DNA of 63,838 bases, counting the filler, from Collodictyon triciliatum (lineage: Eukaryota), in NCBI GenBank assembly GCA_043381765.1. It is 15 parts of 15 records of this genome, joined end to end, with 100 filler letters (N's around TTAATTAATTAA, not from the genome) between each part and the next. Parts side by side here need not be neighbours in the genome. Positions count along the whole stretch, not along the records: positions 58,147 to 62,512 come from JBHJMP010006182.1; 14 more parts are not named here. One strand, 5' to 3'. The translations under genes and the position numbers were made by a program. This document shows positions 14,881 through 63,838 of this stretch, piece by piece (the first letter of the stretch is position 1; every line of letters begins with the position of its first letter). Under the pieces are notes generated by a model that worked only from the letters and a program-made list of their open reading frames with translations, did not search any database and was not told where the DNA came from.

Positions 14881-16399
14881 ATGGCCGTCGACACAAGCGT
14901 CTCGTTCCGCTCCTACGCCGCACTGAGTGCCGGAGCCACACTCGAGCCGTGGACCTACCATCCCCGCGTCCTCGGCCCCCGCGACATTGAGATCAAGATA
15001 TCCCACTGCGGAATCTGCGGCACTGGTTTGCTTCCGTTTCATATAAACTTTCTCGTCCAGCCCATCATTTGCCAATATAATAACTCGGCTTTGTGTCCCC
15101 GATAAAAGACCTTCACATCATCGAGAACGGCTTTAAAAACTCCATCTATCCCGTGGTTGCTGGACATGAAATTGTCGGTGAGGTTGTCGCTGCCGGGCCT
15201 GAGGTGACCAACGTCAAGGTAAGTCTCGTACATGATGACTGAAACGCAAAAGTTTATCTTATTGAAGCTAACTATTGTATACCTGACTCATTTGTCGTTG
15301 AAAATTAACCTAGATTGGTGACCGCGTCGGCGTCGGTGCCCAGTGCTACGCCTGCCTAAGGTCAGACTGTACTGACTGCAGTAACAAGGACGACAACTGC
15401 TGTCCCAAGAGTCTCCTCACATATTCCGCTGTGTATGAAGACGGAGAGGTCTCCAAGGGTGGCTACGCCGACCGTGTCCGTCTCTTGTCTGACTACGCTT
15501 TTGTAATCCCAGAAAGCATCCCATCCGATATTGCTGCTCCTCTTATGTGCGCTGGTGTTACGGTCTTTGCTCCTTTGAAGCGGTAAGTCCTTTGACCTTA
15601 AGCGCGGCATTCACTTCCTACTCGTTACGTAAGACCAATCAACATAACCCGTATTTAACTGATTCCCTATAGCCACGGAGTCAAGCCCGGTGTTAAAGTA
15701 GGAATCATCGGTATTGGAGGTCTCGGCCATCTCGGAATCCAGTTTGCCAGGGTAAATTTCTGACCTTCTCTTTATCCTTCAAAGAATCACGCTGTTTCAA
15801 ACTTGATGAACAACCACCACATTTCATAGTATTAATTTGCAATCCAAAACCACCAGGCTCTCGGTGGTGAGGTCACTGCCATCTCCCACTCGGAGAAAAA
15901 GAAGGAGGAGGCCACCAAGCTCGGAGCTCAGCACTTTATCAACAGCAGTAACCCTGCCGAACTCACTGCAGCTGCAAAGAGTGTAAGGGAAGCACACCTA
16001 CTCTAACTTTTGGTTCGAGTTAGTGGTGTCTTATCAACCTTGACTCACATTTAACCACACATCTAGTTGGATGTCATCCTCGTGACGGCAAACAGCAACG
16101 ACATGAACTGGGGCGGATACATGTCGCTGCTCCGTACACACGGCAAAATTATTGTCAATGGCATCCCAGAGGAGCCCATCAAGGTCGCCCCCTTCAACCT
16201 CATCATGAGTCAAATTGGTCTTTATGGAAGCTTCATCGGCTCCATAGAGGAAATCAAAGACATGCTGCACTTCGCCGCCGAGCATAACGTCCGCCCGTGG
16301 ATCGAAGTTCTGCCCATCCAGAAAGTCAACGCGGCTGTTGAGCACATGCGCGCTGGTAAGGCTCGCTATCGCATCGTCCTCGAAAACAAGTTTGACTAA
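14881..16399 (+). CDS. Zinc-dependent NADP alcohol/aldehyde dehydrogenase (CAD/Ahr-like MDR family), complete; exons 14881-15025, 15109-15218, 15314-15582, 15673-15751, 15857-15982, 16067-16399
   Basis: Motifs CGICGTDLH, GHEIVG, GDRVGVG, structural-Zn cysteines C-x4-C-x2-C-x7-C, APLMCAGVT, GIGGLGHLG, GSFIGS and KARYRIVL. All five introns are GT-AG and in phase. Confidence 0.95.
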
Positions 16400-17487
16400 G
16401 GCGCAGTACCACCGCGCACGGCCCTGAAGGCCAAACTGGTGCCCTTGTCTGTCGGCCTCTCAATTTAGCCGAAAACGCATGTCACTTTCGAACCGCGTCA
16501 ATATCTTCTTTCTTGGCTTGGCTCTAGCAACGCTACAGTCACTATTTTCATGAATCATCCCTATTGCCTATTTTCTACAAAAAAGTTCCAACCCTATCTT
16601 TTGTTACCACTATCTTACCATGATGAACGCCACTTCATGTGAGCAGAGAAGTACTAAGTTTTCCGTGATTTGAATAAAGCATCAATCCCTCACCAAATAC
16701 CCGTAAAATGCGCGCCGTATTCTAAATTCTGTGAAGAATACGCTGCGCAATTCACTTGTGGATTACAAGAAATCGTGTGACTAACTACTGATTTATTTGG
16801 CCACCGCAGCATGTTTTGATTCATTCTGGGTTATTTGGTGTGACCCAAATAAAAAAAAGGAAAAAGAAAGACACTCACGACTCAAGGCCCTCTGCTCCTT
16901 GACATCGAACTGCACCCCAGCCATGCGTGTGTAGTACGAACGATGGTATAGACGTGAATACATGATTCGGCCACGAGGCCGTTTGGATTGCATGACTGCA
17001 TGTCACAAAGCCAGAAAAAAAGAAAAAGAAAAAGAAAAAGAAAAAGAAAAAGAAAAAGAAAAAGAAAAAGAAAAAGAAAAAGAAAAAGAAAAAGGAAAAT
17101 AGAATGAAGAAAAGAGAGAAAAAAAGAAAAAGAAAAAAGAAAAAAGAAAAAAGAAAAAGAGAAAAAGAGAGAAAAGAGAGAAAAAGAGAGAAAAAGAGAG
17201 AAAAGAGAAAAAAAAGAGAGAAAAAGAGAGAAAAGAGAAAAAAGAGAAAAAAGAGAAAAAAGAGAAAAAAGAGAAAAAAGAGAAAAAAGAGAAAAAAGAG
17301 AAAAAAGAGAAAAAAGAGAAAAAAGNNNNNNNNNNAGAGAAAAAAGAGAAAAAAGAGAAAAAAGAGAAAAAAGAGAAAAAAGAGAAAAAAAGAGAAAAAA
17401 GAGAAAAAAAGAGAAAAAGAAAACATTAAAAACATAGAAACGGATTACATCAGCAGAACAATAAGTATAGGGCACTATATTCATAAT

Positions 17488-17917
17488 ACTTTTACTGCCT
17501 GCACCTCGACTCACTGGAGAGTATATGTTGCACCTTCATTACAACAAAGAGACACCAATACAAAATCAAAACACTGATTAAGCTACCCACAGAGGGAGGC
17601 GTCGGACTCATCACACCCAAAACCGCATGGATATCACTGACCATGAAGTGGTGGACGGACATGTCCATGCAGCCGAAAGGGTTTTGGCAAACTGTGGTGT
17701 AGAAACTCATCACCAAACTGTGTGCAGACTTCAAAACACAGTTGCAACAAAGAACAATCCCACGACCACCTCCAAACACACCCGAGCCTTTACTCTCGCG
17801 TTGGCAGATTCTGTATACTCACTGCGAAATGACAATACCCCTGAACGAGCCATTGGCAGCAGGACAAATATGCTGGGACAACCAGAAAGGCTTCTGCATC
17901 ACCAAACAGGTTCACGA
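17488..17917 (+). mobile_element. Degenerate non-LTR retrotransposon fragment (L1/Tx1-like ORF2, region C-terminal to RT)
   Basis: Frame reads YFYCLHLDSLESICCTFITTKRHQYKIKTLIKLPTEGGVGLITPKTAWISLTMKWW...VV*KL. The GGxGL motif after a proline is characteristic of L1-clade ORF2 downstream of RT. One in-frame TAG; A/C-rich sense strand. Confidence 0.7.
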
Positions 17918-22915: not shown

Positions 22916-25900
22916 TCATTTGGTAGCGGGTTGGCGTGGGGATATATGCATCAAAGGACCGAATATTTTTTTCTGGATGCGCTTGTGGTTTGTATTGAGT
23001 TCGAATATCACGCTCGCTTTGTTTTTGAACACCAGCCGAAGATTCTGAGACAACCACGTCCGATTGACCGGAGCCCCTTCCACCCATACAGCGGGATTCC
23101 TCAGGGGAGATACCTACACCGATAGAAGAAAAAAAAAACACAGTTACATTGACTTCCTGTTCATTTTGTGCTTTTCTTCATATGTATATTTCAGATGAAG
23201 TTATACATGTGATAAATCGAGCAACTTTATGTTTGTGAAACTCTTAACAAAATCAAATTATTATTATTATTATTTTAAAAAGGAACATATATTGAATTTG
23301 GGCAGGAACTAAAAGCAAACAAGTACTTCGATATAGCCAATTCCGTAATACTTGCAAATCTCCAAGGCTTCGCTATCGCCTGTGACCACTTTTCTTACCC
23401 ACTAGTATAAAAGAGACAAATGATAAAACTATTCGCATTATTCTATGAGACAACATCATCCTTTTAATTCCAAAGAATAACCAAAGAAAAAATGGTTCCA
23501 CACAGAGGATAAAGAGAAAAAAGAAAAAAAGAAAAAAGAAAAAAAGAAAAAAAGAAAAAAAGGAAAAAAGGAGAAAAGAAAAAGAAAAAAGAAAAAGAAA
23601 GAAAAAAAGAAAAAGGAAAAAAGAAAAAGGAAAAAAGAAAAAAGAAAGAAAAAAGAAAGAAAAAAGAAAGAAAAAAGAAAGAAAAAGGAAAGAAAAAAGA
23701 AAGAAAAAAGAGAGAAAAGGAAAAAAAGGAAAAAGAAGTGAACGACGGCGAACCCTCTCTTGCAGCTCGTAGGAAAGACCTCGGTTTTGAAGCCAGACTT
23801 TATAACCCATGATGACATTTCTCCCAGCCCAAGCCGTGATTGGGTGGTTATAATGCGGCGGTGGAGATGCTACGTTTTCATAGTATTAATCAGTTTTTAC
23901 AGTACAGTTTTTTTCTATGGACGCTTAAGGAAGGACACATATTTGCATAGTTTTAGACATAACACATAGGATTATTATGATTATTTTTTTTTAAAAGAAA
24001 AGACACCTAGCATGAACAACGAATCATGCGGCGTCTTTTCCCTTACCCAATTACCGACTTCAATTTGATCTTTATCTAACAGAGTGACGGTCTTTTCGTA
24101 TGTGTACATAAATTGCCCCATTTAGACCAATATTACATATAATCAAAGTAAATTTACATAAGGCATGGTTTTATACATACATTCGTGAGTTCATTTGTTA
24201 TTGTGTTGAATCCATCCCATGTCAAAAGGGTTGTAATGAAAATAGCGATCAGACGATACTGAGCTCGATAAATTATGTTATTTTTAAATTAATGTATAAT
24301 AAATCATTCAAAAATAGGAGTATATATATTAATTGCTATGACTTTCATTGTTGCACTAACGCGTCAATCACATAAAATCATACATTCTGATTTTTTGACA
24401 TTAGACTTGCCAAGTAGCTTCCTATGGCAATAGCGAATCCAAAGAATCCCATATAAAGAAACTGTTCATTACAATTAATATTATCATTTTTTTTAAAAAA
24501 AAACCATTCGAGATTAAGAAGAGATGCCTATATGTGGATATCATTTGTTGATGCGATGATTACTAGGGCTCACCTTAACGTTTTCTAGATGTGATACTTG
24601 AAATTTCAAGAAAGAGCCAACGAAAAATAAAACAAAAAAGGGGATGATGAGCTTTTTTTGATGTGTAGACATAGTCCTCCATGAAAAAGCCAGAATGACG
24701 ACATGGAAACCAATACAATTCCATAGCCAGGATATGAATTTCCCGTCCTATTATTTGTTAATGGAATTTTAACAGATGGGATATGACATGACTGTGAAAA
24801 TGAACGAAAAAGAAAAGAGAATATTCTACATCAAAGTATTTTGTGATAAATTTGTGTTGAAAAAGTGAAATATTGAGGTGATATATATATATATCCAATC
24901 GAAGGAAGTTTGAATAAAACATAAAATACCTTTACTGTAGCCCACATTGGTGTAAATGATACAAAATCAGCATCTGATGACCCATCGATAAAAGATGCCA
25001 GCTTAAAAAAATACCGGTAAAAAGAAAATTTAAAGTCAAGCGACACTAATAAAGCTCTAGCGACTAAAGGAGTTTTGTACGTGAATTAGGGGTGTCATCT
25101 CTTGATAGCATAAATCAGGTGCTTACTTGAGGAAGTCCCATGAGCAAAGCTGGACCTGTAGTAAAGATCACGTCTTGGATAAAGGTCATATTGAAAGGGT
25201 CGCTATGATTCATAGTTAATTATATATATTTTAAAAAAACAGCTTATTTCCTGCAAAATAACAATATAAATACCAACAAACGATTAATTGAGAATTAAAT
25301 CAGTTAAATGCGTATTCATATGACTGCAGCTTATTCTCTCTCTTTCTCTTTGTTTCTTTGTTTCTTTGTTTCTTTGTTTCTTTGTTTTTCTCCCTTTCGC
25401 TTAAATGGTTAGTCTTCTTTTTCTTTTTCACCAAAATCAGTTCATGAATTCAAAAGTTTTTTTTACATAGTGTGTCGTTCATAATCGGAAACAGACTTAC
25501 CTGATTTGCAGGAAATGCAACAGCAGGTAGACAGATGCATACACCATATATGCCAAAAAAGCAAAAGGGTTTAAATATGGAGACAGTCCCGCAAGGAGAC
25601 TAGCCAGCTGCATCAACCGCCAGCGAATCTGTATCTTTGTCGCTGTAATAGCAGACCACAAGGCAGACAAAGACCCCAAAAACAACACATACGCATAAAC
25701 CAGACGGGAATCCGGGAGGACGACATCTGTAGTGAAGGACGTCCAGAATGCGGGGGCTGGACTAAGCAACAGAGGCTGATTCGGAGGGAAATACGGAGCC
25801 GAGGCGGCAAAGACGGTCAGAAACAAAGGCAGGGTCGTGAGGACAGATAATGGAGGAGGATGGAAGAAAGAATTGGTTCCCTCGGCCATGTTGCCGATAA

Positions 25901-27477: not shown

Positions 27478-29230
27478 CGATTTTCATCCTTCTCGATTCA
27501 CTCATAGCATCATCTATCCCAGTATTTAGATATCTCATTTCATCTTCAACAATCCTACTGTACGTAACCCATATCTTGGACAGGACTTTGCCCCGTTCTA
27601 CACAATGAATTCCAACCTAAATTTGTATCGAATTTTAATCGATGATGTATCTTACATTTTCCATTTGTTAATGATTTATTTAATATCTCTCTCAAAATGA
27701 ACTATTCAGGACCTGGCGAATAACCTCGTTCATACAATTTTGGCATGCAGTTAGGGATGCTTGAAATTGGCCTGATTGATATGTATGTAATAAAAAAAAT
27801 TATTAAAAATTTTGGACACGAATGAAATAAAACCAAATATTCACGAATTTTATAAAGGATTCATATATATATTCAAAACCTGCTGAATCCCCTATCATTT
27901 TATCGAAAGATTTTTCGAGTAGAAGAGCTTCGGATCGATTGCTTGGGTCTGTTGAAGGGAAAATTTTGACCTTCTTTCCTGTAGCTAAGGTGTCATCGTA
28001 TTTGTTATTTAAAAAAAACTCTGTCGATATCCAAAAAAATATATGAAAAAAAGCGACAACTAAATGATTGAGCTCAATATCAAAAACGAAAGGTTTTTTT
28101 TTTGACATTGCAATGTATATTTCGTAATTTATTTCGAAGTGAATATATAAAATCATGAGGATAAACTCACATTTTCCAGTGATTCCATCCGCAAGGTCTT
28201 CGAAAACATGATATCTTTCTGGGATAGTGGAGTCGGGTATGATAAAGTCCACATCAGAGCTTTTTGCAGAAATTCCGTGCCCATGGCGATCAGATATCGA
28301 TGATATTTCCTGGAATGTTAAAGTATTGAACTAATGTATCATAAAAAGAAAATCACGTGCTCATGGCATTGATCGATACAAATTGATCATGGCCACATCG
28401 ACCTTCTTGGGGTGCTCTTCTAGAGCCTTTGCGATCTTTTTCGTGTAATTATTTGTTGGTGGACGGGCAACCAGCGATGAGACCTTTCCGAGGCGAGAAA
28501 AGTCAGGAAAGGCGACTGCAAACTTTGGTGGGACATCAATTTGAAGTCCGGTCGAAGATGCATCTTGTTTGGACAGTTTCACACTTTTGCTGGAGTGACC
28601 TTGCGATGGAGAAGGCGATGGCGACACTAATGATGATTGTGTTTGTGCTGTCTGGACGGCCTTCTGCTTATAAAATAAAGAATACACAGCGATGAATAGT
28701 ACACAGTCACAGTTGACACATATATAGCAACCAAGAAAAATGAAGCATTAAGATAGCGTCCGATAGCTTTGAATTGAATTAAGGGGAAAAAAAGATTATT
28801 TTTTTTTAAGGGGAAAAAAAAGATAGCGTCCGATAGATTAGAGATGATGCCGCTTCCTTATGCATCAATCATAGGTTTGATTACCTTTGGTGTGATTTCC
28901 GGCGCTTTTTTACTTGGGAAGGAGTCGACATAAGGATTGTAATCTGAAGTGCGGTGTCCCTGATGGTTTATCGCATATTTAGAGACATTATATGGTAAAA
29001 GAAAAAGAAAAAGAAAAAGAAAAAGAAAAAGAAAAAGAAAAAGAAAAAGAAAAAGAAAAAGTAAAGGAAAGGAGAGGATAAGAACAAGAAAAGAGAGGAC
29101 TTGAAGGTACCGATGATTTTTGGCTATTGTCCTGGACTTGGGGAACTGCATTCCGTGCAATTGGTTTTGGCTGGGAAGTGGGTCGGGGACTTTTATTCGT
29201 TCCCAACGACTTAGAAGAGGTTGAAAGCAT
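27478..29230 (-). CDS. Axonemal dynein light chain domain-containing protein (AXDND1-like), 3'-truncated
   Basis: Spliced IPERYHVF...NNKYDDTLATGKKVKIFPSTDPSNRSEALLLEKSFDKMI and CMNEVIRQ|VGIHCVERGKVLSKIW. The latter matches the p28/DNALI1-family motif ELIRQVxxxCxERG. The N-terminus is low complexity. Confidence 0.7.
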
Positions 29231-29629
29231 CGCCTCAAGGCAACTTAAACTATATGTGGTTTTTTTTTTTTTTTTTTTTTTTGCCAGATACACGTACCAA
29301 GTTGGGAAGGAAAGAAGATGCTTTCCATTTAGATAGTTTCTATCTTCCTCTCTTTTCTCTCACTTTTTTCTTTTTCCCTTTCTCCCTTTTCCCTTTTTTT
29401 TTTTTTTCCTTTTTTCCTTTTTTCCTTTTTTCCTTTTTTCCTTTTTTTCCTTTTTTCCTTTTTTCCTTTTTTCCTTCGCTTCTTCTGTTTTCCTGTATTT
29501 TCCTGTATTTTCTTCTTTTTTTCTTCTCACGATTATTGCTTTGTCTTTCCCGTCGTAACTGCGCCACTTCGCGGATCGAGCAGAAGGCCAAAAGCAACTA
29601 TTCTACCCAAAACCCTTTTTCTTTTTTTA

Positions 29630-30430
29630 CCATCCATCGCTGACAAACTCATATCCAAAGAGCAGATTGGCTTCATGAACGGAAGGAACATCGACACAAA
29701 CATCTGGGTTGTCAAAAACGAGGAGTACATGAAATATCAAGTAAGCGGGACACCCCGCGCTATGATTTTCTACGACCTCAAGAAAGCATACGACCATGTG
29801 AACCACGAAGCACTGGAAACCATCCTACACAAAAGAGGCTTCTGTACCGGATTCACAGGTCTTATCCATAAGTTACAACAGAGAGCTGTGGATAGGTGCG
29901 CGTGTAGTCCATGCAGCAACGACCTCTCCAGAATGCATCATGTGCCAAAGTGGAGATGACTCTATCGAACACACATTTATCAAGTGCTCTCTTGCTCAAA
30001 AAGTGACAGAGTCTACCCACAAGATGCTCTCTGAGTTTGATTATACTCCCAACCGACTCAGCGCGTCTGACATCCTGTTTGGCCCACAATACCAAATGAC
30101 CCACGACTCTAGAATACTCTGGACAGTCACAAGGGGACATATGCTGTGGGCCTTATGGAGTGTACGCGCATTCTCTCGCTCCAATGATTCACCCGAACGA
30201 GAAATCAATGAATTCATACTTGAAAGCCTCGTGCAATACAGCTTCCTGAACAGCCTGCTGAAACACGCTCGCATTCTTCGCTACTCTGACCGCAAGCGAA
30301 GAGAGATGTGGGAATGTGTCGTAAGATATCTCCCACAGCATAATCAACCCCTGCTGCCCACGCAACCAATCAACCAGTTGGGACGCCAACCTGACCAACT
30401 CGCTATCACTGACTTCTTTCCAGTGATAGT
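29630..30430 (+). mobile_element. Internally deleted L1/Tx1-like LINE: start of RT joined directly to the C-terminal CCHC (zf-RVT) region
   Basis: LISKEQIGFMNGRNIDTN...IFYDLKKAYDHVNHEALETILHKRGF (early RT motifs). After ~29880, in a different frame: ECIMCQSGDDSIEHTFIKC (C-x2-C-x8-H-x4-C)...LWTVTRGHMLWALW...QLAITDFF. Confidence 0.88.
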
Positions 30431-30572
30431 TTCTTCACAGAAACTTCTATTCTTGTGTTTATTCTCTACCACGCGCACCTATTTCGCCCGTTGTATGCGA
30501 AACCCTAGAACACTTTGAATGAAATAAAGAAAACATATGGCTTTATTGATTCTTTTGGAGCGTGTTGCCAAG

Positions 30573-39111: not shown

Positions 39112-40045
39112 CTTGAGATAGATATTCGGATTCACATTTAAGACGAGATAACTTCAATGGTATATTTCTTGTAATTGCATTCAAATAGTAGAAAAAAGGA
39201 TGAGTAAGAGTGAAATACTGAGATTAGAGAGAAAAAAAAGAAAAGACAAAAGAGAAAAAAAAGAGAAAAAAAGAGAAAAAAAGAGAAAAAAGAGAAAAAA
39301 GAGAAAAAAGAGAAAAAAAGAGAAAAAAAAGAGAAAAAAAGAGAAAAAAGAGAGAAAAAAAGAAAAAGAAAAATATTGGACTTGAGAAAAAGAGCTCTCA
39401 GAATCCCAGCAGCCTGAGTATGTTTCGAGGGAAGCCAATGCGTTTCGCTGTGGCGCAGCGCCCAAAAATCACGGCAGATCGCAAAACAGTGACGCAAAGT
39501 CGAATTGAAGCGCGCAAACCATTTTATACATACCTGGAATTTATAATTTCTTGTCGTAGCAATGAACCAGGAGCCTATTTCAAACGGATATTATAATTTA
39601 ACATGCGTCGCATAGGTTTTGAGTGATTGAGTACAAAATTACCCAACCAGTTCAGTTGCATTAAATATGATTGCAACCACCTCGGACTGTTATCTTGTAT
39701 TTCCTCACTCTGCTATTGATTAAACAGGCTATCTGAGGCGTGCGTAAAGAGTGGTGGCAGACGGAAAAAAAAACGATAGATTCTATTATTGTTGCCATTC
39801 TCTTTATTATACCCTCTCTCACTTGGTGCAGATGAGAGGTTTGCCATGAATATATTAATTTCTCTTTTGTAATGTGGATTATTCGAAAAACATGAGATGA
39901 GGTTTTTTTTTTCGCCCATTTTTTTTTTTTTTTTTAAAAAAAAAGACACACGACGCTCCCAGTCATGGTTTGTTTCTTCGTAGAAAGAAAAAAGCAATCG
40001 AATTATAATGGAACATCCCTTTGGTTTTGCACAAAAACTACACGT

Positions 40046-46565: not shown

Positions 46566-49213
46566 CTGTAATGTAAGGACATGTGCAATTATAGTTTAAT
46601 ACTAGAACTAATCATCATCATCNNNNNNNNNNNNNNNNNNNNNNNNNNNNNNNNNNNNNNNNNNNNNNNNNNNNNNNNNNNNNNNNNNNNNNNNNNNNNN
46701 NNNNNNNNNNNNNNNNNNNNNNNNNNNNNNNNNNNNNNNNNNNNNNNNNNNNNNNNNNNNNNNNNNNNNNNNNNNNNNNNNNNNNNNNNNNNNNNNNNNN
46801 NNNNNNNNNNNNNNNNNNNNNNNNNNNNNNNNNNNNNNNNNNNNNNNNNNNNNNNNNNNNNNNNNNNNNNNNNNNNNNNNNNNNNNNNNNNNNNNNNNNN
46901 NNNNNNNNNNNNNNNNNNNNNNNNNNNNNNNNNNNNNNNNNTACCGGAGTACAACGAATGCTGCTAAAAACTTAATAGAATGAAAGGGTGCTCTTTCATT
47001 GTGGCAAAGAAAGAAAGCTACACCCACCCTGCGAACAAGACAGGCAACCATCCCACCGATAGAAGAACTCACCAACAACAAACACATCAAACGCAGCATA
47101 AAAAACAAAACACAGGCGCAAACAACCAAAACCATACTAGAAGAGGAAAAGAAGTAATTTATATTCCGTATTAATATCATTATAATTTTTCCAATATTTG
47201 GAATTTATTGAATCGCTGCTTTAGATAGACGCAGTATCAATATGCCATTAGTTTTTTTTTCGATTTTTAGCAGTTGCAATAGTCGTGCATTGCTGAAAGA
47301 TACCACACGTGATGGAGCCCGAAATACTTTCAGCCAAGCCAGTCTCCACCCCGTATAAATCATATTTATATTGGGAAAGTTAATCACATTTGAGCGGAAA
47401 ATACGCCAGCCTTTGCGGGTTGTCTCAGCATCTTTGAGACAGAGTTGCCCTCTCTCATGCGAGCACAAGACCCAGGCTACGGGTGAAATGACAGGATGCA
47501 ATTCCATACGCGAACGGCCACACTAGTATCACTCGACCACGCTCGCCCTGTGTGATTTGTCGAATGCTTTCATAAAACAAGGATAAACATCATGCAACTC
47601 CATAACTCGCAACGCAACCCACCCGCCCGCACAATCCCCACGAGCCCGCCCAGAATGTCGCCAACTCAATCACGCCGCGATGGCTGACGAAACTGTGGTG
47701 TTGAAGACGCTAGTAATTATCACCAGGATTGCCGAAATCGCTTCCTTGGAAATCTATGCAAGATTCAGTCTCCGAAGCAAATGACTGGCAGCTGTCCCAT
47801 GCGGTGGTTTCCTTATTGACTTTTCTTAATGAACTTAATGTTTGGAGCAATCGGCTGTCATTGCTGTCATCAGGATTGCTAATTTTAACGGGGTTTGTAC
47901 GGTTGGATATTTATGATAATCCTGTCTGTTCAATATATGCTGCCTGAAAGCCCATACACTCAATTACACTTTTTTTTTTTTTTTTTGTATTCTTGCATAT
48001 TGTAAAGATTCATGATAAAATAATATCCCTGAATGCTCTCAGTTGCTTGCATATCCAGAGCAGAGAATCTTGATTATAAACTCATTCGAAAACTGGATCC
48101 TTACAACCACATAAGAGATTAGGGTTTATTGCTCATTTGCACACTGCCTGAATTTAATACATACAAATTTTCATATACTAGAATAACCCATCAGGACTTG
48201 ATCCTTCGTTTAACAAAAGGACTGTCAATAAAAATAAAAAAACTGGATTTCCTTATCTGCTTGGAGCTAGTCAAAGTGGTACAGCGGCTGCATGTATTAA
48301 ATCTTGCATTATATAAAAATTAATACATTTATTTTCACCCCTTCTTGAATGCTCATAGTTGGCATTTAGGTTATCACAAAGTTGGCAAGTAAAGGCAGCA
48401 ATCCGTACGTTTAAGCACTTTTCGGTTTGATCAGCCCCACCGGCAATTTAATGCTTATCCTTTTAAATTATCTCCTTTCTCCTTTCTCATATCTAAACTT
48501 TTTTGGGTTTTTTTAGCACAGCTTTTCCCCAATATCACAATCAGCCATCCACAAACATCCCAACCAAACCCATGAGTCAACAAAAGGGTGATAAAAATAA
48601 GGGTAGTCAGTTCATTGATGCAATGTATTTGGATGCCAGACAAGGAAATGATAAATAGAGGAGAAAGGAAACTAAAAGAAGTCAAACCGAGCCCCTACTG
48701 ATAATCCTTGATGCTTTGGTTTTGCGAGATATGTACAAAGAGAAATAGAAATTCGCTTTCTAAGAGTTCCACTAGGATTTTCGGTTAGATGAGTTGTGAC
48801 TACGTATTATACGATTTTCTAATATCTATATATATATGTATGAAAAGAAAAAGAGATAAATGAATGAAAAGGAAAATGAATTTCGTGACATTTTGTCATA
48901 TTTTTTTGCTTCTGATTAAATTGCTATTCAACAAATCAACACTATTGATTGGGATATCTAGAACTTATGATATTTCGTACATCATACATACATACATACA
49001 TCATACATACATACATACATACATACATACATACATACATACATACATACATACATACATACATACATACATACATACATACATACATACATACATACAT
49101 ACATACATACATANNNNNNNNNNNNNNNNNNNNNNNNNNNNNNNNNNNNNNNNNNNNTTAATTAATTAANNNNNNNNNNNNNNNNNNNNNNNNNNNNNNN
49201 NNNNNNNNNNNNN

Positions 49214-55006: not shown

Positions 55007-57898
55007 TTATCCCACACGAGAGACGTACGAGCTGGACGATGTGATGTAGCGAACCCACCGATGCGGGAAACTCTGTCTGTTGAAGTCGACCAGACGCAGG
55101 TAGCGGATTTGGATGTTACTGCACGGATACATCGGCAGCTCAAACTCCATGCTGCAGGGTGATGCATCCATATGTTTGGTTACGATGAGAATTGGAGTAG
55201 TTTGAATGATTAATGTACTTCTATTTTTCTATTTTTCTTTTTCTATTTTTCTATATTTCTATTTCTCTATTTTTCTATTTTTCTATTTTTCTATTTTTCT
55301 ATTTCTATTTTTCTATTTCTATTTTTCTATTTCTATTTTTCTATTTCTATTTTTCTATTTCTATTTTTCTATTTCTATTTTTCTATTTCTATTTTTATTT
55401 CTATCTCTATCTCTATCTCTATCTCTATCTCTATCTCTATCTCTATCTCTATCTCTATCTCTATCTCTATCTCTATATTTCTATTTCTATTTCTATTTCT
55501 CTTTCTTTTTCTATTTTTCTTTCTTTTTCTTTTTCTTTTTCTTTTTTTATTTTTCTATTTTTCTATTTCTTGCTAAATCCAAGCTAGTGGGTTACTTGAC
55601 AGGGCCGATTTCCTTTCGGACAGCCTCGGTGGCAGAATTAGTTAAGAATATCTGCGCGTAGAAATCAAGGTACGCATACATTAGCAAACGTTCATTGACG
55701 AATATGCGAAACACCAAACATATCATGAATGATGCAAATGCGAATGATTAAAAAAAAACTTTAGCGCGAAGGATGTGTTCGAGTCCGCCCTGGAATCTCT
55801 TAATGTTCCACTGAATAAACTTTTCTGAGAGCTTAGACAAAAAAAAAAAAAAAATTAAACAAAATAGCTTTAGCCAAATGTCTCAAGAATATATGATTAA
55901 CGATTAGTCATTCATCGCTCTATCTACTCTTCCGAATAATTGAATAAAAATTATGGCCCTTCTCTCTCATTTATAATGCTTTTACATATACCGAATTCAT
56001 AATCCCATTTAGAAAACGATCGCAGCATCAAAGAATATGATAAATAGAAGAAATTAGCTTAATGATTATATCAGGTACTTTGACTTCGGCTGTTTGTCCA
56101 GTCACGCCCGGGGGCAGTGTGGTTGACGCACTTGTGGTAGACTTTGGGATTGGAAATCGAATGCTCACATTGTTTCCAAAGTGGGTTTCGGGAATATCTG
56201 AGCGCACTTTGACAGAGACTTCAAGCGTGGTTGAGTTTGCTCCTTCCACAATCGTGAAGATGCGAAATGGGAGCTTAAAATCTCCGTTCACTCGATAATT
56301 CATGACGCAAAATTCGCCTGTGTATGCACAAAGAAAAAACAAAAGAAGGGAAAAAAGAAGGGGAAAAGAGGAAGATGAAAATGAAGAAAAGAAGGAAGAA
56401 AAAGGTACGATGAAGTTTCGTTAGATGAGAAGCATACGAATCTTCAACGAGTCTTGAATATTACTGGGTAAAAATGGAATTGGTAGTAGTGTCTATTAAA
56501 TTGATTGATAGTAATTACCGTCTGGTGGGTGAATTATCAGAGTTCGATCATTTTCAAACTCGGATGTGTTTACTGATTCATGGAAGTTGCAGTCATCAAT
56601 CACTGTTGCGGTGTATCCTGTACACCACAAGTAATATAATAACTTTAAGAAGAAAAGCGGATTGAGCAGACAGACAAGATGATATAGATAAAACGAACCA
56701 GATCTCGAATGCTTCCCAATCACAAGGTCTTCGTTCAATCCCAGGCGCAATTCAGGATTTCCAAGGAGGTATGTTTTCATTTGAATACTTCCGTGTATTT
56801 CTTGGTTTAAAACGCTTCCCTGTTATTTATTGTAATATAAAAAAATCAAAAGTCTTCGAGCCAACGAGTAATAATTGTGAATTCCCTTCATATAGCAGCA
56901 GAATTATGATAAGCGGTATGTACATTTCCACTGAAGATAACAGAAAGCTTCTCGAATATATCGATGAAAATTTCTTCTTTCATATTCCTTCTCCCTCCTC
57001 TATTAACCGCAATTGGCTTGTTTGCGGAGGTACTCGGGGTAGTTTTTCGGTCAATCTGAATCAAAATAGAATTTTACATAATCGCGTATACCATACGCAG
57101 AGTTTTGCAAGGGTATTCTTTTTTTTTTTTTTTTGGAAAAAATAAAGTGTCATTGTGTAATGTGTAACATATAGAAATGAAAATAATACATGGGTGCGTA
57201 TAAAAGTAAAGATGGAACTATACCAACAAGCTGGGAATGTTTGATGATTCTGGAATTATAGGCTCGTTGAGGACAAATGTCTTGAGAGTATCGCTAGAAG
57301 TGCCTTGAGGATATCCATAGTCCTTAAAATTGCGATTGAATCATGTTGGCCCGTTAAAAGTATATGCGTACGTATTCAAGAGCAAGTAAACGGGATTGAT
57401 ACCTTTGGGAAACACATGAGAATTGAGAATAAAATTTATAGATGAACTGTTCTACGGACTTACGAGTATTTCGTCCAATAATTCATAGATAAGAACAAAG
57501 TTTGTGCGGATGGACTCCTCCGTCAGAATCCCACAATAGTCTTTGAACACGCGGGTGACACGAGAAAGGAGCTCGAGGATAAGTGAGGGTGACACATTCA
57601 GGCGAGTCGTACAGACAAAGTAGAGCCCATTCTTCTTTGTAAAGAGATAGTTGATTCCATCCAAATGCTATATAGATTGAATAAATTTAAACGTGATGTG
57701 CGGGGATTGCTAGACGCTGATTTTATTATTATTATTTTAAAAAAAAAAAAGGCCATCGCTTTCCATCGTCTTATTATCAAATACAGATCGAGATGCATTC
57801 TTGTGAAAATCATACAAAAACTGGAGGCGCGTCTCCTTTCCACAGCTTAACCTTTCGAAAGAATATTTCCACAGCCTCTCTGGGAACATCTCCTCTGA
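55007..57898 (-). CDS. AP4M1: AP-4 complex subunit mu, lacking the first exon
   Basis: RGDVP..EIFFRKVK, NVSPSLILELLSRVTRVFKDYCGILTEESIRTNFVLIYELLDE, DYGYPQ, MKTYLLGNPELRLGLNEDLVIG, DDCNFHESV, PPDGEFCVMNYR, RKEIGPV|SMEFELPMY, HRWVRYITSSSSYVSR. Confidence 0.93.
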
Positions 57899-58046: not shown

Positions 58047-58146
58047 NNNNNNNNNNNNNNNNNNNNNNNNNNNNNNNNNNNNNNNNNNNNTTAATTAATT
58101 AANNNNNNNNNNNNNNNNNNNNNNNNNNNNNNNNNNNNNNNNNNNN

Positions 58147-58768
58147 TTTAATATGTTTTTTTAATATGTTTTTTAATATGTTTTTTTAATATGTTTTTTT
58201 AATATGTTTTTTTAATATGTTTTTTAATATGTTTTTTAATATGTTTTTTTAATATGTTTTTTTAATATGTTTTTAATATGTTTTTAATATGTTTTTTAAT
58301 ATGTTTTTTAATATGTTTTTTAATATGTTTTTTAATATGTTTTTTAATATGTTTTTTAATATGTTTTTAATATGTTTTTTAATATGTTTTTTAATATGTT
58401 TTTTAATATGTTTTTTTAATATGTTTTTTTAATATGTTTTTTAATATGTTTTTTAATATGTTTTTTAATATGTTTTTTAATATGTTTTTTAATATGTTTT
58501 TTTTATTTTTTTTTTTTATATGTTTTTTTAATATTTTTTTTTAATATGTTTTTTAATATGTTTTTTAATATGTTTTTTTAATATGTTTTTTTAATATGTT
58601 TTTTTAATATGTTTTTTTAATATGTTTTTTTAATATGTTTTTTTAATATGTTTTTTTAATATGTTTTTTAATATGTTTTTTACTATGTTTTTTTAATATG
58701 TTTTTTTAATATGTTTTTTTAATATGTTTTTTTAATATGTTTTTTAATATGTTTTTTTAATATGTTTT
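58147..58768. repeat. AT-rich minisatellite, unit T(5-7)AATATG (~12-13 bp)
   Basis: Directly visible tandem array with a variable T-run. Confidence 0.95.
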
Positions 58769-59399
58769 TGACAGCTTCTTGCACAGTTTTTCGCCTCACT
58801 AAAGGTGAAAGCCACGATCACTGCCCTTTCCTTTCCCTCTTGTATTCTGACGCCCCGCGGTTCGCGTTTCTTCGGTAGATCAATGTCAAGAAAGGCAATT
58901 TGCCACTTTTCAACTTTTTTTTTTCGACGGGCGGCTGAGGAGAAGGCACCGCAGGCACAATCACAGACAACCGCGCAGGCTAAAACGCCGCTTTTGGTAT
59001 TCGCACCAAAAGAAAAAAAAAACAACCAATAGGCCAAAGGGCTGTCCAGGGCCAGGAACGAAATCCAACCCAATCCTTTCAGAATAAATCGCCTGGTAGC
59101 CAATAGATGTAGATAAGGATGTCCATATAATCTGCTTTATATTGCTTGTTTTCTGGATTTGCGCGTGCCCGTGAAATGAGATGTATCGGTTGGTTCGTGA
59201 AAATAATATGACTTTCAAAGCTACCTTGTATCGCACATTCGAAAATATTGTTATGTTTGTTATTGCACATGTTTTTGTATATAATAGTCGAGAGTGTATC
59301 TTGGGGAAAAGGATTGTCACTAGCAAACTGAAAAGAAAAGTATGAATGGGAATATGTGCTTGGTTAACCAGCGTTCCATGATATGGATTTTTTATTCTT

Positions 59400-59992
59400 C
59401 CTTTCAATTTTGAGCAGGATGGTGGAGATGTTGGATTTGGTTCGCTAGCCATCGTTTACATGGACGCTACTTGTTGGCCGGGTGGCAGAGAAGTAGTCAG
59501 TAATCAGGAATTGCATCCTGCGGTTTGGCCTGTAGCCTGGGCCTTGTGCTTGCATGAGGGAGACAAGGCGAGGTTTAATATCTTTCTCAGCCTCTTTCCA
59601 CATGTCTCTTCTCACAGGGTCTGAGTAGTAGAGAACGTGCTGGTGGCGAAGGAAACTGTTGAGGAAAGAAATTTGTATGATGTCATCCAGCCTATAATCG
59701 GGAATGGGTGGCTGGTTGTTGAGTCTTGCTTTGCGTGAGTATATGTCCGCTATCCACATAGTCCATAGCAAATGGCCTCGCGTCACTTCCCAGAATCTTT
59801 TTTCGCATCTGAACGCAGTTGTTGCAGATACTCAAATATCGCCTGGAATGGGCCAACAGCTGCAGCCATCTTGAGTGTCAGTCGGAGAATCTCGCTGGCT
59901 GTTTCGCGCAGGGTTTGAGCGTATAATCATCGCACATATGTGCGCTCGATGGATTCATCACCGTTGCTGCAAAGTGTGCATTATTGGTCCAT
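59400..59992 (-). mobile_element. 5'-truncated, degenerate L1/Tx1-like LINE 3' end, a family related to 29630-30430
   Basis: DQ*CTLCSNGDESIERTYVR* (decayed CCHC), one frameshift, then FWEVTRGHLLWTMW...SFLNSFLRH..LYYSD..RRDMW...QFLITDYF, matching the other element block by block. AATAAAAAA lies ~50 nt after the stop. Confidence 0.85.
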
Positions 59993-60672
59993 GGATTTAT
60001 GTGTCCTATAATTAAGTTGTATCTAATTCGTGTGATTAATCAATATCATGTCTCGTCTCACAATGGATAATAAATCATGGTTGGTTACAGGAATTTTTAT
60101 AAGCTAAATACAGAAAACTCTGCTCAAAAGAAAATAAAAGAATAATTCAATATTAGCTCAGCGGCTTTGGAGAAAATAATACGTGCTGTATTACGCCAAT
60201 CTGCAAGACCTCGCTCAATCCTCTCTAATTATGTATATTCCATAAACTAGCGCCATCATTCTGCATTTATTTCGCTCATAGTTTTCTATTTTATTTCATT
60301 TTATATTTTTCTTTGAATCGAGTAAAAGGAAAAATTACCGGCAGAGCGGGGNNNNNNNNNNNNNNNNNNNNNNNNNNNNNNNNNNNNNNNNNNNNNNNNN
60401 NNNNNNNNNNNNNNNNNNNNNNNNNNNNNNNNNNNNNNNNNNNNNNNNNNNNNNNNNNNNNNNNNNNNNNNNNNNNNNNNNNNNNNNNNNNNNNNNNNNN
60501 NNNNNNNNNNNNNNNNNNNNNNNNNNNNNNGTATTGTATTCTATTGTATTGCAGCTTAATGTAATGCTTAATACCATTATGCACTGTTTTGCCTATACTG
60601 TTCAGTCTAATGCAAAATATGTCACAATTACGTAGCGTTTCAGATTTACTAACACAATTAAACTGTGCACAA

Positions 60673-62085
60673 TTATTTTTTATTGGCTCTAGAGAGATTT
60701 TCTACTTCATTTGATATTCTGCTGAGTGTTTCCATCATTTGCACAATTTTTGCATTCTGCTGGTCCAACCGCAAAAGCAGTTGATATCCAAGATTTGGGG
60801 AAATGGTATCAGGATGTGAGGCGGGGTATGTTAGAGGCACAGTATTTGAGGATTGTTTCAGTCCATGGTTCATCGACTCGCCTTTCAAGTTTGTTGGTTC
60901 GAGAATGTGAGCTATGTGCATATGTGTAGAATGTAAAACTGTTTGTTCAACATACATACATACATACATACATACATACATACATACATACATACATACA
61001 TACATACATACATACATACATACATACATACATACATACATACATACATACATGATTATTAAGGGTACCTATCTGCATGGTTTGCCATTCCTGCTCGCGA
61101 TGTCCGGTATGGGATGATAACACCAGAGCCTTTTTAGCAGTAACTTGGGGATCTGCGTGTTCTTTCAAACCCGACAACTTTTCTTGTAATTCTGCTGTAT
61201 ATGACTCTGGTAGCATGTCATCGTCCACTGCGTGGACAAAGGCATTGAATAAGTCGTATTCCTTCTGATTCAGGGTGTGTTTCCTTTTTGCCTAAATAAT
61301 ATCATAGAATCCGTTCTCAAAGGCAGCTAGGTGAGCGATGGTATGCCGATTGTTTTTATGGCATTTTTGTTGATAGGAAAGAAAATAACTGCTGTTGATT
61401 CTATTGGGTTATGTATTCAAAGAATTGCATTATATTCATCACATTTCAGTGATGTAGATACTTTTAGAGCACTTACAGATTTCATGTTCTTTATCTTTAT
61501 CCTAACACTCTCAATTGAAGTGTGAAGCATAGGGGAGATGAAGTTTGCTATACGAGCCAGTCCATCAGCAGAATCCTCTTTGTATGCGTGCCGGTGAAAA
61601 ACGCAGGCCAGCAGCAATGTATGTACCTCTCCAGGACTCCATCTCTTTCGGTTGAACTTTTCTTGCTTTCTCGTAAGTGCATCATCGTCTCCGGCTTCAA
61701 CATCGCCTTCATCAGCACTTTTTCTTCTCCTTTTGACCATCTTTGGGGTTTTGGCTGTTTTGTCCTCTGCTTGCAAGTAGGATCCTATCGCCCCGCTGCT
61801 GGATATTCGGCCCTCGTCCAGCCTGTGGAGTTCTTGGACTCTGTCCTCCTCCACAGAACCATTGCCCGAATCGTAGTTGCTGTCTCCTCCTTCGCCAAAG
61901 TACTCGTGCGAGTTGCCGGCCACCTTGACGGCAGCCGTCTTGGACACGAATCGGTCGAAGGCACCCGATTCTGCTTGCGCTGTGCTGCTCTGATCTGTGC
62001 TGGCGCTTTTGTGGCTTTTGCTTCTCTTCAGGGCGGCTCGATCGGGCTCTGCAGAGAGGCTCGAAGGCTGTCGGGCTCCAGACAT
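60673..62085 (-). CDS. Myb/SANT-like (trihelix-type) DNA-binding domain protein, about 3 exons
   Basis: Acidic/basic disordered N-terminus, then RKRWSPGEVHTLL...GLARIANFI...SIESVRIKIKNMK (W..EE...LL / IA / V..K..N.K pattern). Later exons are at ~61290-61070 and ~60950-60673, the latter coiled coil. Confidence 0.55.
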
Positions 62086-62822
62086 CGGGTCTTGTTTTCT
62101 CTTGGGTCGGTCACACGCCAAACACTGCCAGTTGGTTGGATATGCAGAAACTGTTTCCTGTGTCTGGCTGCTTGGGCTTGATTGCTGGGTGGCGAAGTCC
62201 TTTTTTAAAGATCAGAGCATGAAAGGGAATATGCAAAAACGCGGATCTCTTCTGCTGAAGGTTTTCTGTTATGTGTCATTGTCATTTAGATATGAAGATA
62301 TTTTGTGGTTTCTTTGTTCCTCCATACTGTTTTTCATTCGTTACTTTGGGTGAATGAAAGAGTGAAAGGGTTGCTTGGCTATTATTTCTTTTTGAGATTG
62401 TTTTTGATGGTTTTTTTATTATTGTTTTTTATTATTGTTTTTTATTATTGTTTTTTATTATTGTTTTTTATTATTGTTTTTTATTATTGTTTTTTATTAT
62501 TGTTTTTTATTANNNNNNNNNNNNNNNNNNNNNNNNNNNNNNNNNNNNNNNNNNNNTTAATTAATTAANNNNNNNNNNNNNNNNNNNNNNNNNNNNNNNN
62601 NNNNNNNNNNNNTATGTTTTTATTATGTTTTTATTATGTTTTTATTATGTTTTTATTATGTTTTTATTATGTTTTTATTATGTTTTTATTATGTTTTTAT
62701 TATGTTTTTATTATGTGTTCATTATCATTTTCATTTTTTCATAATTTTTAAGAAAAAAATCAACTTTCTCTCATTTGTGGCTCGTTTTTGCTTTTTGTAG
62801 CTTACCTATGTAATTTCAAAAG

Positions 62823-63838
62823 GAAATACTGAGACTATAGCTAGGAAGCAAAGGGATGGGAGTTATAAACTTTACGGACTCAAGTACTTTACATCTGCGG
62901 CAACATCAGAAGTGGCGGTGACTCTGGCGCGAATTGAAGATGAAAATGGGAGGGCAATACCAGTTAGTATATATTAAAAAATACGAAAAGGATATCTTGG
63001 AATCAGCACAATCCTAAATTATGAAACAAAATATTATAATATTCAGTTTATTTTAACCTTGGATTTGAATTATAGCGCGTCGACTTTAATTTTCATGAAA
63101 TAATGTACTGATTCTATTATATCCTCTGTATTTCAAACTGTAGGGCAGCAAAGGCCTTTCATGTTTCTATCTATTTACACACAAAGAAAACGCATCAAGA
63201 TTGAATGAAATCCAAATTCGCCGCCTGAAGAACAAGCTTGGTACTCGCTCACTGCCCACCGCCGAATTGGAACTGCTTGGAACACCAGCTGTCTTGCTGG
63301 GAGATGTTGGGCGCGGTGTACGGACAATATCTGTTTTATTCAACATTACGCGAATCTACAACGCAGCTTGTGCTGTTTCTACTATGCGCCGCGGCTTTGC
63401 TCTTGCACAAGATTACGCGACAAAACGGAGAGTCTTTGGCTGCCTGCTGATTGAGCAGCCGCTTCATGCGCGCACACTTGCCTCCATGCAAATGGAGATA
63501 CAGGCAGGCTTATTGCTTGTATTGGATATCGCACACCTACTCGGCCGTGTTGAGACGAAGCTTGTTGCAAATAAGGGAACTCGTGATACAAATGAGCTTG
63601 ATAGACCCGGTAACGAAGATGAAGACTCTGTTCTGTTACGAATATTGACTCCCCTTGCCAAGCTCTATACAGCCAAGCAGGCCGTTTCTCAGGCCTCAGA
63701 GGTGCTTGAGTGTTTTGGTGGTGCTGGCTATATGGAAGATACCGGACTTCCTCGTCTACTGAAGGAGGCACAAGTTCTACCCATCTGGGAAGGAACTACC
63801 AACGTCCTGTCCCTAGATGTGTTTCGTGCTCTTGCCAC
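62823..63838 (+). CDS. Acyl-CoA dehydrogenase, AidB-like subfamily, partial; exons 62823-62962 and 63144->63838
   Basis: [105 protein letters not shown]. Confidence 0.93.

What the first reader, a model, noticed from the sequence alone, without database searches (positions are those of the whole stretch)
59478..59513. LINE ORF2 ends in a complete PCNA-dependent PIP-degron (QFLITDYFSATR)
Seen: the last ~25 residues of this L1/Tx1-like ORF2 contain Q-F-L-I-T-D-Y-F-S-A-T-R. Established: the PIP box is Q-x-x-[ILM]-x-x-[FY]-[FY]. The CRL4-Cdt2 PIP-degron (p21, Cdt1, Set8) adds T-D at positions 5-6 and a basic residue at +4, and all of these are present. Human L1 ORF2p binds PCNA through a PIP box between the endonuclease and RT domains, not at the C-terminus. 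Inference: this LINE lineage docks on chromatin-loaded PCNA through a C-terminal tail and may be destroyed there, coupling insertion to replication or repair and limiting its own activity. I know of no description of this arrangement.
Basis: partly seen in the sequence, partly recalled or inferred. Interest (0 to 1): 0.8.

Follow-up and report, generated by a model that had tools for sequence, protein, structure and literature searches.

The report
PCNA-docking tail on a LINE protein
A family of jumping genes (LINE retrotransposons) from an unidentified freshwater eukaryote keeps a short, textbook PCNA-clamp-binding motif at the very end of its reverse-transcriptase protein, which suggests it hooks onto the host's DNA-replication clamp, but the extra feature that would make it a self-destruct signal is not conserved.

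Summary
On the minus strand, window 59478-59513 encodes QFLITDYFSATR, 10 residues before the stop of a 128-aa open frame. The copy is a dead, 5'-truncated (about 600 bp), frameshifted LINE fragment.

The motif is not chance. The box with T-D occurs twice in the six-frame window, against 0.01 expected, both times at the tail of a LINE ORF2 fragment. Across 15 tails from four or five subfamilies that are 32-54% identical, 11 keep Q-x-x-I-T-[DN]-[FY]-F at a fixed distance from the folded domain. The flanking linker is unconserved (5 of 8 invariant columns against 1 of 35, p = 3e-4). Codons differ synonymously between copies, and the tail is predicted to be disordered.

The core ITD[YF]F equals that of the Pogo transposase and of optimised p21 peptides, which bind PCNA at nanomolar affinity.

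The degron reading is not supported as a family trait. The +4 K/R is present in 4 of 11 tails.

PCNA binding itself was not tested. No full-length element, host genome or host identity was available.

Verdict: a probable conserved C-terminal PIP box in a LINE ORF2, a new variant of a known kind. I found no description of it in the papers searched.

The parts
59389..59987 (-). LINE copy 1: a 5'-truncated, decayed 3' fragment of about 600 bp
   Evidence: In two metagenome runs, contigs of other copies continue past 59987 with a shared sequence unlike the window. Past about 59389 they diverge or become T-rich on the plus strand (table 7). A possible imperfect target-site duplication, AAATCCAT..GGA, flanks both ends.
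59448..59831 (-). Open 128-aa frame: the C-terminal domain and tail of ORF2 (stop codon at 59445-59447)
   Evidence: It is 83-94% identical to metagenome proteins P0008, P0002 and P0001.
59490..59513 (-). PIP-box core QFLITDYF
   Evidence: The homologous position is conserved in 11 of 15 family tails.
59478..59489 (-). Positions +1 to +4 (S-A-T-R); R is the putative degron residue
   Evidence: The +4 residue varies across the family: K/R in 4 of 11.
59389..59444 (-). Short 3' UTR ending in an A-rich run
   Evidence: element end taken from the loose ends.
59927..59980 (-). Decayed CCHC zinc knuckle (zf-RVT region) in another frame, ending in an in-frame stop
   Evidence: Read and compared with the intact knuckle of P0008. 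zf-RVT scores above its cut-off in P0008, P0004 and P0009.
59803..59807 (-). Frameshifting indel relative to other copies
   Evidence: table 4: two of the X1 contigs leave out 2 letters at 59803. The frame changes between the knuckle region and the 128-aa frame.
29627..30515 (+). LINE copy 2 (another subfamily, on another contig): RT fragment, zf-RVT, C-terminal domain and tail
   Evidence: RVT_1 scores 29.1 bits (cut-off 29.6) and zf-RVT 24.9 bits (cut-off 27.5), both just under their cut-offs. It is 36.5% identical to copy 1 by tblastn.
30396..30431 (+). Copy 2 motif QLAITDFF followed by PVIV (+4 = V)
47450..47505 (+). A 56-bp remnant of the copy-1 subfamily; similarity ends inside the motif
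   Evidence: 84% nucleotide identity. The translation stops matching after 'RMQF'.
58047..58146 (.). Artificial contig linker N44-TTAATTAATTAA-N44. The contig that holds copy 1 is 58147-62512.
   Evidence: 14 such linkers, spaced about 4.47 kb apart.

Best explanation
The motif is a conserved short linear motif: a canonical, high-affinity-type PIP box (Q-x-x-I-T-[DN]-[FY]-F). It sits in a flexible tail 7-14 residues before the C-terminus of the ORF2 protein of a zf-RVT-bearing LINE family.

Inferred mechanism: the exposed tail inserts Q into the Q-pocket, and I plus the two aromatic residues into the hydrophobic pocket, of DNA-loaded host PCNA. This tethers the endonuclease/reverse-transcriptase RNP to replication or repair intermediates during target-primed reverse transcription. 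That is the role assigned to PCNA binding in human L1.

The basic residue at +4 in the window copy is a subfamily feature, not a conserved degron.

Shown here: the motif, its conservation, its position and the predicted disorder of the tail. Inferred only: PCNA binding and its role.
For: 1. Sequence as reported.
2. The T-D-containing box occurs twice in the window, against 0.01 expected, both times at LINE ORF2 tails.
3. A phmmer scan of 1.84 billion representatives, a profile search and one metagenome scan gave 13 further tails, so 15 in all with the two window copies. Of these, 11 carry the canonical box. It starts exactly 40 residues after the L[RY]Y.D anchor of the folded domain (43 in P0003).
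4. Among representatives of subfamilies A, C and D (36-52% identical to one another), 5 of 8 motif columns are invariant, against 1 of 35 linker and post-motif columns (Fisher p = 3e-4). When subfamily B is added, Q, I, T and the last F stay invariant and no linker column does.
5. The three available DNA copies differ synonymously in the Q, I, D and F codons, which points to a constraint on the protein rather than on the nucleotides.
6. In the AlphaFold2 model of P0004 the core (residues 80-228) has block pLDDT mostly 70-89. The tail (229-253), which holds the motif at 237-244, is below 50.
7. In contigs of two freshwater metagenome runs (25 and 114 pieces laid), the only listed difference within the 36 nt is a synonymous Leu change at 59505. 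Twelve further variant places were not shown.
8. The core ITDYF equals the Pogo PIP core QKKITDYF. ITDFF equals the optimised p21-08 peptide. A p21 peptide carrying the Pogo box binds human PCNA at 8.8 nM (PMC8191301 and PMC4615156, passages). The T-D pair confers high-affinity binding (PMC3973308, passages).
9. PCNA binding is required for human L1 retrotransposition, and in a split-ORF2 assay it can be supplied from a separate fragment, so its position is flexible (PMC4889948, passages).
Against: - No binding test of any kind was possible. The one complex job was not folded.
- Four of 15 tails lack the canonical box. P0001 has a one-residue deletion. P0005 and P0009 diverge before or at the box. 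P0015, the most divergent member, has Q-Y-F-N-T-P-F-F with N at the hydrophobic position.
- The sample is small and partly redundant: four or five subfamilies, all from short contigs of at most about 1.8 kb.
- No full-length ORF2 was found, so an intact, active element carrying the tail has not been seen.
- PIP-like motifs can also bind other partners (PMC6881253, passage on overlapping RIR and MIP motifs).
- Within the copy-1 subfamily, the lower variant density in the motif (1 of 40 listed places, about 3.6 expected) is not significant (my own Poisson estimate is about 0.13).
Confidence: 0.6

Rival explanations
1. One reading: the tail is a PIP degron. ORF2p docked on chromatin-bound PCNA is ubiquitylated by CRL4-Cdt2 and destroyed, which limits the element's own activity. 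On the present data this could hold only for the subfamilies that carry K/R at +4.
For: - The window copy has all the defining positions: Q, I, T-D, Y-F and R at +4. The definition is taken from PMC3973308 and PMC6881253 (passages).
- R at +4 is also present in P0008, P0011 and P0014.
- No listed variant falls in the R codon (59478-59480) in the metagenome contigs.
- T-D inside PIP boxes is described as rare and typical of CRL4-Cdt2 substrates (PMC3973308).
Against: - The +4 residue is K/R in only 4 of 11 canonical tails. It is L in the close relative P0002, P in P0003, H in P0004 and P0010, and T, V or A in subfamily D.
- Full T-D plus K/R is present in 3 of 11.
- T-D alone does not cause degradation (PMC6881253).
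- Pogo also has T-D, and I saw no report that it is a degron.
- Selection on a parasite for its own destruction needs a special argument.
- It is unknown whether the host has Cdt2, because no genome is held.
Confidence: 0.1
2. The conserved tail motif serves something other than PCNA. It could bind another partner that recognises PIP-like motifs (for example Rev1 or Mlh1-type pockets), pack back onto ORF2p itself, or reflect a constraint on the RNA 3' end, which lies only about 70-125 nt away.
For: - PIP-like motifs overlap RIR and MIP motifs (PMC6881253).
- In human ORF2p the sequence-canonical PIP box is a helix packed against the palm and fingers (PMC10830420), and a different PCNA site is now proposed (PMC7617806). 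A canonical pattern therefore does not guarantee PCNA binding.
- The motif lies near the element's 3' end.
Against: - The full eight-position signature, including Q1 and T5, matches the tightest known PCNA binders.
- The tail is predicted to be disordered, not packed.
- Synonymous differences between copies argue against an RNA-level constraint (three DNA sequences only).
Confidence: 0.2
3. The motif has no function. It is shared by descent among decayed copies, and its resemblance to a PIP box is coincidental.
For: - Every copy seen is a fragment, and several are frameshifted.
- The generic PIP pattern is common: 13 in the window against about 7 expected.
Against: - The subfamilies are only 32-54% identical, yet they keep the box at a fixed position while the linker around it has diverged completely.
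- The T-D version is expected 0.01 times per window and is seen twice, both at homologous sites.
Confidence: 0.1

Closest known systems
Drosophila Pogo transposase C-terminal PIP box (core QKKITDYF; basis of the 'PL' Pogo-Ligase peptide)
   Same: - It is a transposable-element enzyme with a canonical PIP box at its C-terminal end.
- The core I-T-D-Y-F is identical to the window copy.
- Binding to PCNA is shown for Pogo (PMC4231638, PMC5371812, PMC4615156 and PMC8191301, passages).
   Different: - Pogo is a DDE cut-and-paste DNA transposase, not a reverse transcriptase.
- The functional relevance of its PIP box is described as unclear (PMC5371812).
- Binding is not shown for the LINE tail.
Human LINE-1 ORF2p-PCNA interaction (PIP box at 407-415, or the 'PUB' motif in the wrist domain)
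   Same: - It is a LINE ORF2 protein that needs PCNA for retrotransposition (PMC10830420, PMC4889948 and PMC7617806).
- The presumed role in target-primed reverse transcription is the same.
   Different: - The human site is internal. The PIP-pattern helix is packed on the RT, and the 2025 work proposes a non-canonical wrist interface instead.
- Here the motif is a canonical box with T-D in a disordered C-terminal tail, after the zinc knuckle and C-terminal domain.
- No significant sequence or fold match to human ORF2p was obtained. The PDB profile search gave 0 hits. In Foldseek the best E-value was 0.39, and 9hdo_A ranked 9th at E 0.68 and probability 0.77.
PIP degrons of CRL4-Cdt2 substrates (p21, Cdt1, Set8)
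   Same: The window copy matches Q-x-x-hydrophobic-T-D-aromatic-aromatic-x-x-x-K/R exactly.
   Different: - The +4 basic residue is not conserved in the family (4 of 11).
- There is no cluster of basic residues downstream as in p21 or Cdt1.
- No degradation data exist, and the host's Cdt2 status is unknown.

Membership tests
Canonical PIP box (PCNA-interacting SLiM) | Sequence pattern Q-x-x-[ILMV]-x-x-[FY]-[FY] | tested here: met
   The window copy has QFLITDYF. The pattern holds in 11 of 15 family tails. The definition comes from PMC3973308 and PMC6881253.
Canonical PIP box (PCNA-interacting SLiM) | Lies in an exposed, disordered region, often at a protein terminus | tested here: met
   The box lies 7-14 residues before the stop in tails with an intact stop. 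In the AlphaFold2 model of P0004 the tail (229-253) has pLDDT below 50, while the core is mostly 70-89. This is a prediction, from a 16-sequence alignment.
Canonical PIP box (PCNA-interacting SLiM) | Conserved as an island relative to its flanks | tested here: met
   5 of 8 motif columns are invariant against 1 of 35 flank columns, p = 3e-4. The test used three subfamily representatives; a fourth keeps Q, I, T and F.
Canonical PIP box (PCNA-interacting SLiM) | Physically binds PCNA through the Q-pocket and hydrophobic pocket | not testable with these tools
   The complex job with an archaeal PCNA stand-in was not folded. No host PCNA sequence is available.
PIP degron (CRL4-Cdt2) | T-D at positions 5-6 | tested here: met
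   T-D is present in the window copy and in 9 of 11 canonical tails. The other 2 have T-N.
PIP degron (CRL4-Cdt2) | K/R at +4, conserved | tested here: not met
   The window copy has R. Across the family, K/R is present in only 4 of 11; the rest are H (2), L, P, T, V and A.
PIP degron (CRL4-Cdt2) | Host encodes Cdt2/DTL, and the protein is degraded in a PCNA- and Cdt2-dependent way | not testable with these tools
   No genome is held for the window. The host was not identified.
Non-LTR (LINE) retrotransposon ORF2 | Reverse-transcriptase domain | tested here: inconclusive
   Only a fragment is present, in copy 2: RVT_1 at E = 9.8e-07 and 29.1 bits, just under the 29.6 cut-off. The PDB match to R2 RT is weak (E = 0.4). 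No full-length ORF2 was found.
Non-LTR (LINE) retrotransposon ORF2 | C-terminal CCHC zinc knuckle (Pfam zf-RVT, PF13966) | tested here: met
   P0004 scores 36.4, P0009 34.1 and P0008 31.2 bits, against a cut-off of 27.5. The nearest ESM Atlas clusters are eukaryotic zf-RVT clusters.
Non-LTR (LINE) retrotransposon ORF2 | Insertion hallmarks: 5' truncation, A-rich 3' end, target-site duplication, many copies | tested here: met
   The 5' truncation at 59987 and the 3' end near 59389 come from contigs of other copies. The element ends in an A-rich run, and an imperfect 11-bp duplication is possible. 114 contig pieces were laid in run X2. The duplication is only suggestive.
L1 / Tx1 clade specifically | APE-type endonuclease, ORF1, and RT phylogeny within the L1 clade | not tested
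No 5' part of any element was recovered.

The most novel reading that the evidence does not exclude
In the subfamilies that carry R at +4 (the window's own subfamily and part of subfamily C), the tail is a genuine PIP degron. ORF2p would then be ubiquitylated by CRL4-Cdt2 once docked on DNA-loaded PCNA. A retrotransposon would carry a built-in, replication-coupled self-destruct signal. The sister subfamilies without the basic residue would be natural 'stabilised' variants, giving a ready-made comparison.
Probability: 0.1. Interest if true: 0.8.

Novelty: new variant of a known kind. Interest (0 to 1): 0.55.

Why it matters
PCNA is required for human L1 retrotransposition, but where and how ORF2p contacts it is disputed. 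One view is the internal PIP-pattern helix, which is packed on the RT. The other is the newly proposed wrist 'PUB' site.

A distant LINE lineage appears to have independently placed an exposed, Pogo/p21-grade canonical PIP box on its C-terminal tail. That would be comparative evidence that clamp recruitment is a general requirement of target-primed reverse transcription, met by different interfaces in different lineages.

It would also give a simple peptide-level system (tail plus PCNA) to test this. It adds a retroelement to the recurring theme of transposon proteins that bind sliding clamps. The natural variation at +4 among subfamilies makes the degron question directly testable.

Tried and rejected
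- **Full-length ORF2.** Two 'longer' searches found nothing. The tool itself says this is weak evidence.
- **Pfam on the 128-aa frame alone.** 0 families.
- **Metagenome DNA scan.** Only 1 locus, L001.
- **Complex prediction** of the tail with an archaeal PCNA reference. The first call failed on an argument range. It was corrected, but the job was not folded, because a eukaryote chain may not be paired with a microbe chain.
- **Fold search of the C-terminal domain model against the PDB.** No significant match (best E = 0.39; human ORF2p 9hdo_A at rank 9).
- **PDB sequence searches.** 0 hits with the profile, and only non-significant hits with the RT fragment.
- **Sequencing runs.** 14 rows hold small shares (at most 0.13) of the words, and no RNA holder is listed. 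Runs X8 ('organism A') and X15 (raw reads, about 3% of the run read) laid nothing.
- **Host identification.** The Atlas look-up of an acyl-CoA dehydrogenase-like frame gave only bacterial clusters. Rfam gave 0 matches. The host remains unknown.
- **Earlier findings of this scan.** Nothing.
- **Warbrick 1998 (PMC147798).** Not held. Pogo facts are taken from later papers that cite it.
- **Literature on a C-terminal PIP box in a LINE ORF2.**
  - Searches listed 14 and 15 papers, judged from titles and abstract starts plus passages of six of them. None describes it.
  - Searches gave 0 papers.
  - (PIP degron with 'transpos') gave 11 unrelated papers.
  - Taylor et al. 2013 was not read. Supplements are closed and may hold ORF2 alignments that bear on this.
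- **Within-subfamily variant density in the motif, from laid contigs.** Not significant, so I do not rely on it.

Full report
**1. What is at the coordinates**

Read on the minus strand, window 59478-59513 encodes Q-F-L-I-T-D-Y-F-S-A-T-R. These are residues 107-118 of a 128-aa stop-to-stop frame (59448-59831, stop at 59445-59447).

The frame is not an intact ORF2.
- Upstream, in another frame, lies a decayed CCHC knuckle that ends in a stop (59927-59980).
- Contigs of other copies laid on the stretch show a 2-letter indel at 59803, which explains the frame change (table 4).
- Those contigs continue past 59987 with a shared sequence that the window lacks. Past about 59389 they diverge (table 7).
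- The window copy is therefore a 5'-truncated fragment of about 600 bp. It ends in a roughly 56-nt 3' UTR with an A-rich run and has a possible imperfect target-site duplication.

The window itself is a chain of contigs of about 4.4 kb joined by N44-TTAATTAATTAA-N44 linkers. The real context of the copy is only 58147-62512.

**2. Is it more than chance?**

In the six-frame translation of the window:
- The generic PIP pattern occurs 13 times, against a mean of 7.0 in 200 shuffles. This is unremarkable.
- The version with T-D occurs twice, against 0.01 expected.
- The full 12-mer occurs once, and in 0 of 200 shuffles.

The two T-D hits are the tails of two different LINE ORF2 fragments. Copy 1 is the finding. 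Copy 2 lies at 29627-30515 (+), is 36.5% identical by tblastn, and ends in QLAITDFF-PVIV. A 56-bp remnant at 47450-47505 breaks off inside the motif.

**3. What the protein is**

- The 128-aa frame alone hits no Pfam family.
- Longer relatives carry zf-RVT (PF13966) above its cut-off: P0004 36.4, P0009 34.1 and P0008 31.2 bits, against 27.5.
- Copy 2 has an RVT_1 fragment just upstream, at 29.1 bits against a cut-off of 29.6.
- The nearest ESM Atlas clusters are eukaryotic zf-RVT clusters.
- The element is high-copy in two freshwater metagenome runs: 25 and 114 contig pieces at 80% likeness or more.

This establishes a LINE-type ORF2 C-terminus. The L1/Tx1 clade assignment could not be tested.
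- No full-length ORF2 was found.
- No PDB sequence match was found.
- The fold search gave no significant hit. Human ORF2p 9hdo_A ranked 9th at E = 0.68.

**4. Family survey**

There is no genome for the window, so I used the protein collections.
- phmmer against 1.84 billion representatives gave 5 true relatives among 7 hits.
- Cluster members added 3.
- A profile search added 9.
- One metagenome scan added locus L001.

Five sequences (P0012, P0013, P0016, P0017, P0019) end before the tail and were dropped. That leaves 15 tails, including the two window copies.

| Feature | Count |
|---|---|
| Canonical box Q-x-x-I-x-x-[FY]-F | 11 of 15 |
| T-D at positions 5-6 (T-N in the other 2) | 9 of 11 |
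| K/R at +4 (copy 1, P0008, P0011, P0014) | 4 of 11 |
| Other residues at +4 | H (2), L, P, T, V, A |
| T-D plus K/R at +4 | 3 of 11 |

The four tails without the box are:
- P0001, which has a one-residue deletion;
- P0005 and P0009, which diverge at or before the box;
- P0015, the most divergent member, which has Q-Y-F-N-T-P-F-F.

**5. Conservation pattern**

- The box starts exactly 40 residues after the L[RY]Y.D anchor of the folded domain in 10 of the 11 canonical tails where the anchor is present or inferable, and 43 residues after it in P0003.
- Among one representative each of subfamilies A, C and D, 5 of 8 motif columns are invariant, against 1 of 35 linker and post-motif columns (Fisher p = 3e-4).
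- With subfamily B added, Q, I, T and the last F remain invariant and no linker column does.
- The three DNA copies available differ synonymously in the Q (CAA/CAG), I (ATT/ATC), D (GAC/GAT) and F (TTC/TTT) codons. This argues for a constraint on the protein rather than on the RNA 3' end.
- In laid contigs, the only listed difference within the 36 nt is a synonymous Leu change at 59505. Twelve further places were not shown, and the lower density is not significant.

**6. Structure**

AlphaFold2 on a 16-sequence alignment (P0004 first) gives a helical core at residues 80-228, with block pLDDT mostly 70-89. The tail (229-253) is below 50 and holds the motif at 237-244. A conserved island in a disordered C-terminal tail is the typical setting of a PIP box.

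**7. Comparison with what is known**

- T-D gives high affinity but does not cause degradation without the +4 basic residue.
- The core ITDYF is that of the Drosophila Pogo transposase box, and ITDFF is that of the optimised p21-08 peptide. A p21 peptide carrying the Pogo box binds human PCNA at 8.8 nM (PMC4615156 and PMC8191301, passages).
- Pogo's box is at its C-terminal end, and related boxes are noted in Tigger and Lemi1 (PMC4231638 and PMC5371812, passages).
- For human L1, PCNA binding is required and was assigned to residues 407-415 (PMC10830420 and PMC4889948). A 2025 study instead proposes a non-canonical 'PUB' site in the wrist domain (PMC7617806).
- I found no description of a C-terminal PIP box in a LINE ORF2. 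Searches gave listings, and I read passages of six of the papers. Searches gave 0 papers. One search gave unrelated papers. Supplements and Taylor et al. 2013 were not seen.

**8. Verdict**

- The motif is real, conserved and positioned like a functional PIP box.
- The most likely mechanism is tethering of ORF2p to DNA-loaded PCNA during insertion (inferred; confidence 0.6).
It stays possible for the R-bearing subfamilies (about 0.1).
- Binding was not tested, because the complex job was not folded.
- The host is an unidentified eukaryote seen in freshwater metagenomes. Its Cdt2 status is unknown.

Noticed in passing
window 4378-4477, 8855-8954... 62513-62612 (14 places): The window is not one contiguous piece of genome. 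It is a chain of contigs of about 4.37-4.59 kb joined by 100-bp linkers N44-TTAATTAATTAA-N44, which carry a stop in all six frames. Neighbourhood across linkers is artificial. The near-equal contig lengths suggest contigs sorted by size, perhaps a binned metagenome assembly.
   Followed up: partly
window 29627-30515 (+): The second LINE fragment, of another subfamily, has an RT fragment joined almost directly to the zinc knuckle (an internal deletion). Its stop codon is lost: L001 stops 7 residues after the box, whereas this copy reads on for 32 residues.
   Followed up: partly
P0015 (Logan-derived protein): The most divergent family member keeps Q, T and F-F at the homologous place but has N and P where I and D stand (Q-Y-F-N-T-P-F-F). 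It is either a decayed copy or a lineage in which the box is changing.
   Followed up: no
window 16878-17574, 23376-23885, 29215-29640, 39141-39593, 55206-55661: Many long CTT/TTC-type and related microsatellites give spurious long F/L/S- or K/E/R-rich open frames on both strands.
   Followed up: no
window 56031-56420 (-), 63144-63836 (+), 16067-16396 (+): Host-gene-like exons are present: by eye an adaptor-complex mu-subunit-like frame and an alcohol-dehydrogenase-like frame. An acyl-CoA dehydrogenase-like frame has nearest Atlas clusters that are all bacterial. If the assembly is a metagenome bin, some contigs may not belong to the eukaryote.
   Followed up: partly
window 59380-60000 in runs X1 and X2: The element is abundant in contigs of two freshwater metagenome runs (summed word depth up to about 700 in X2). 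Nothing was laid from 'organism A' (X8), the only run labelled with a named organism.
   Followed up: partly
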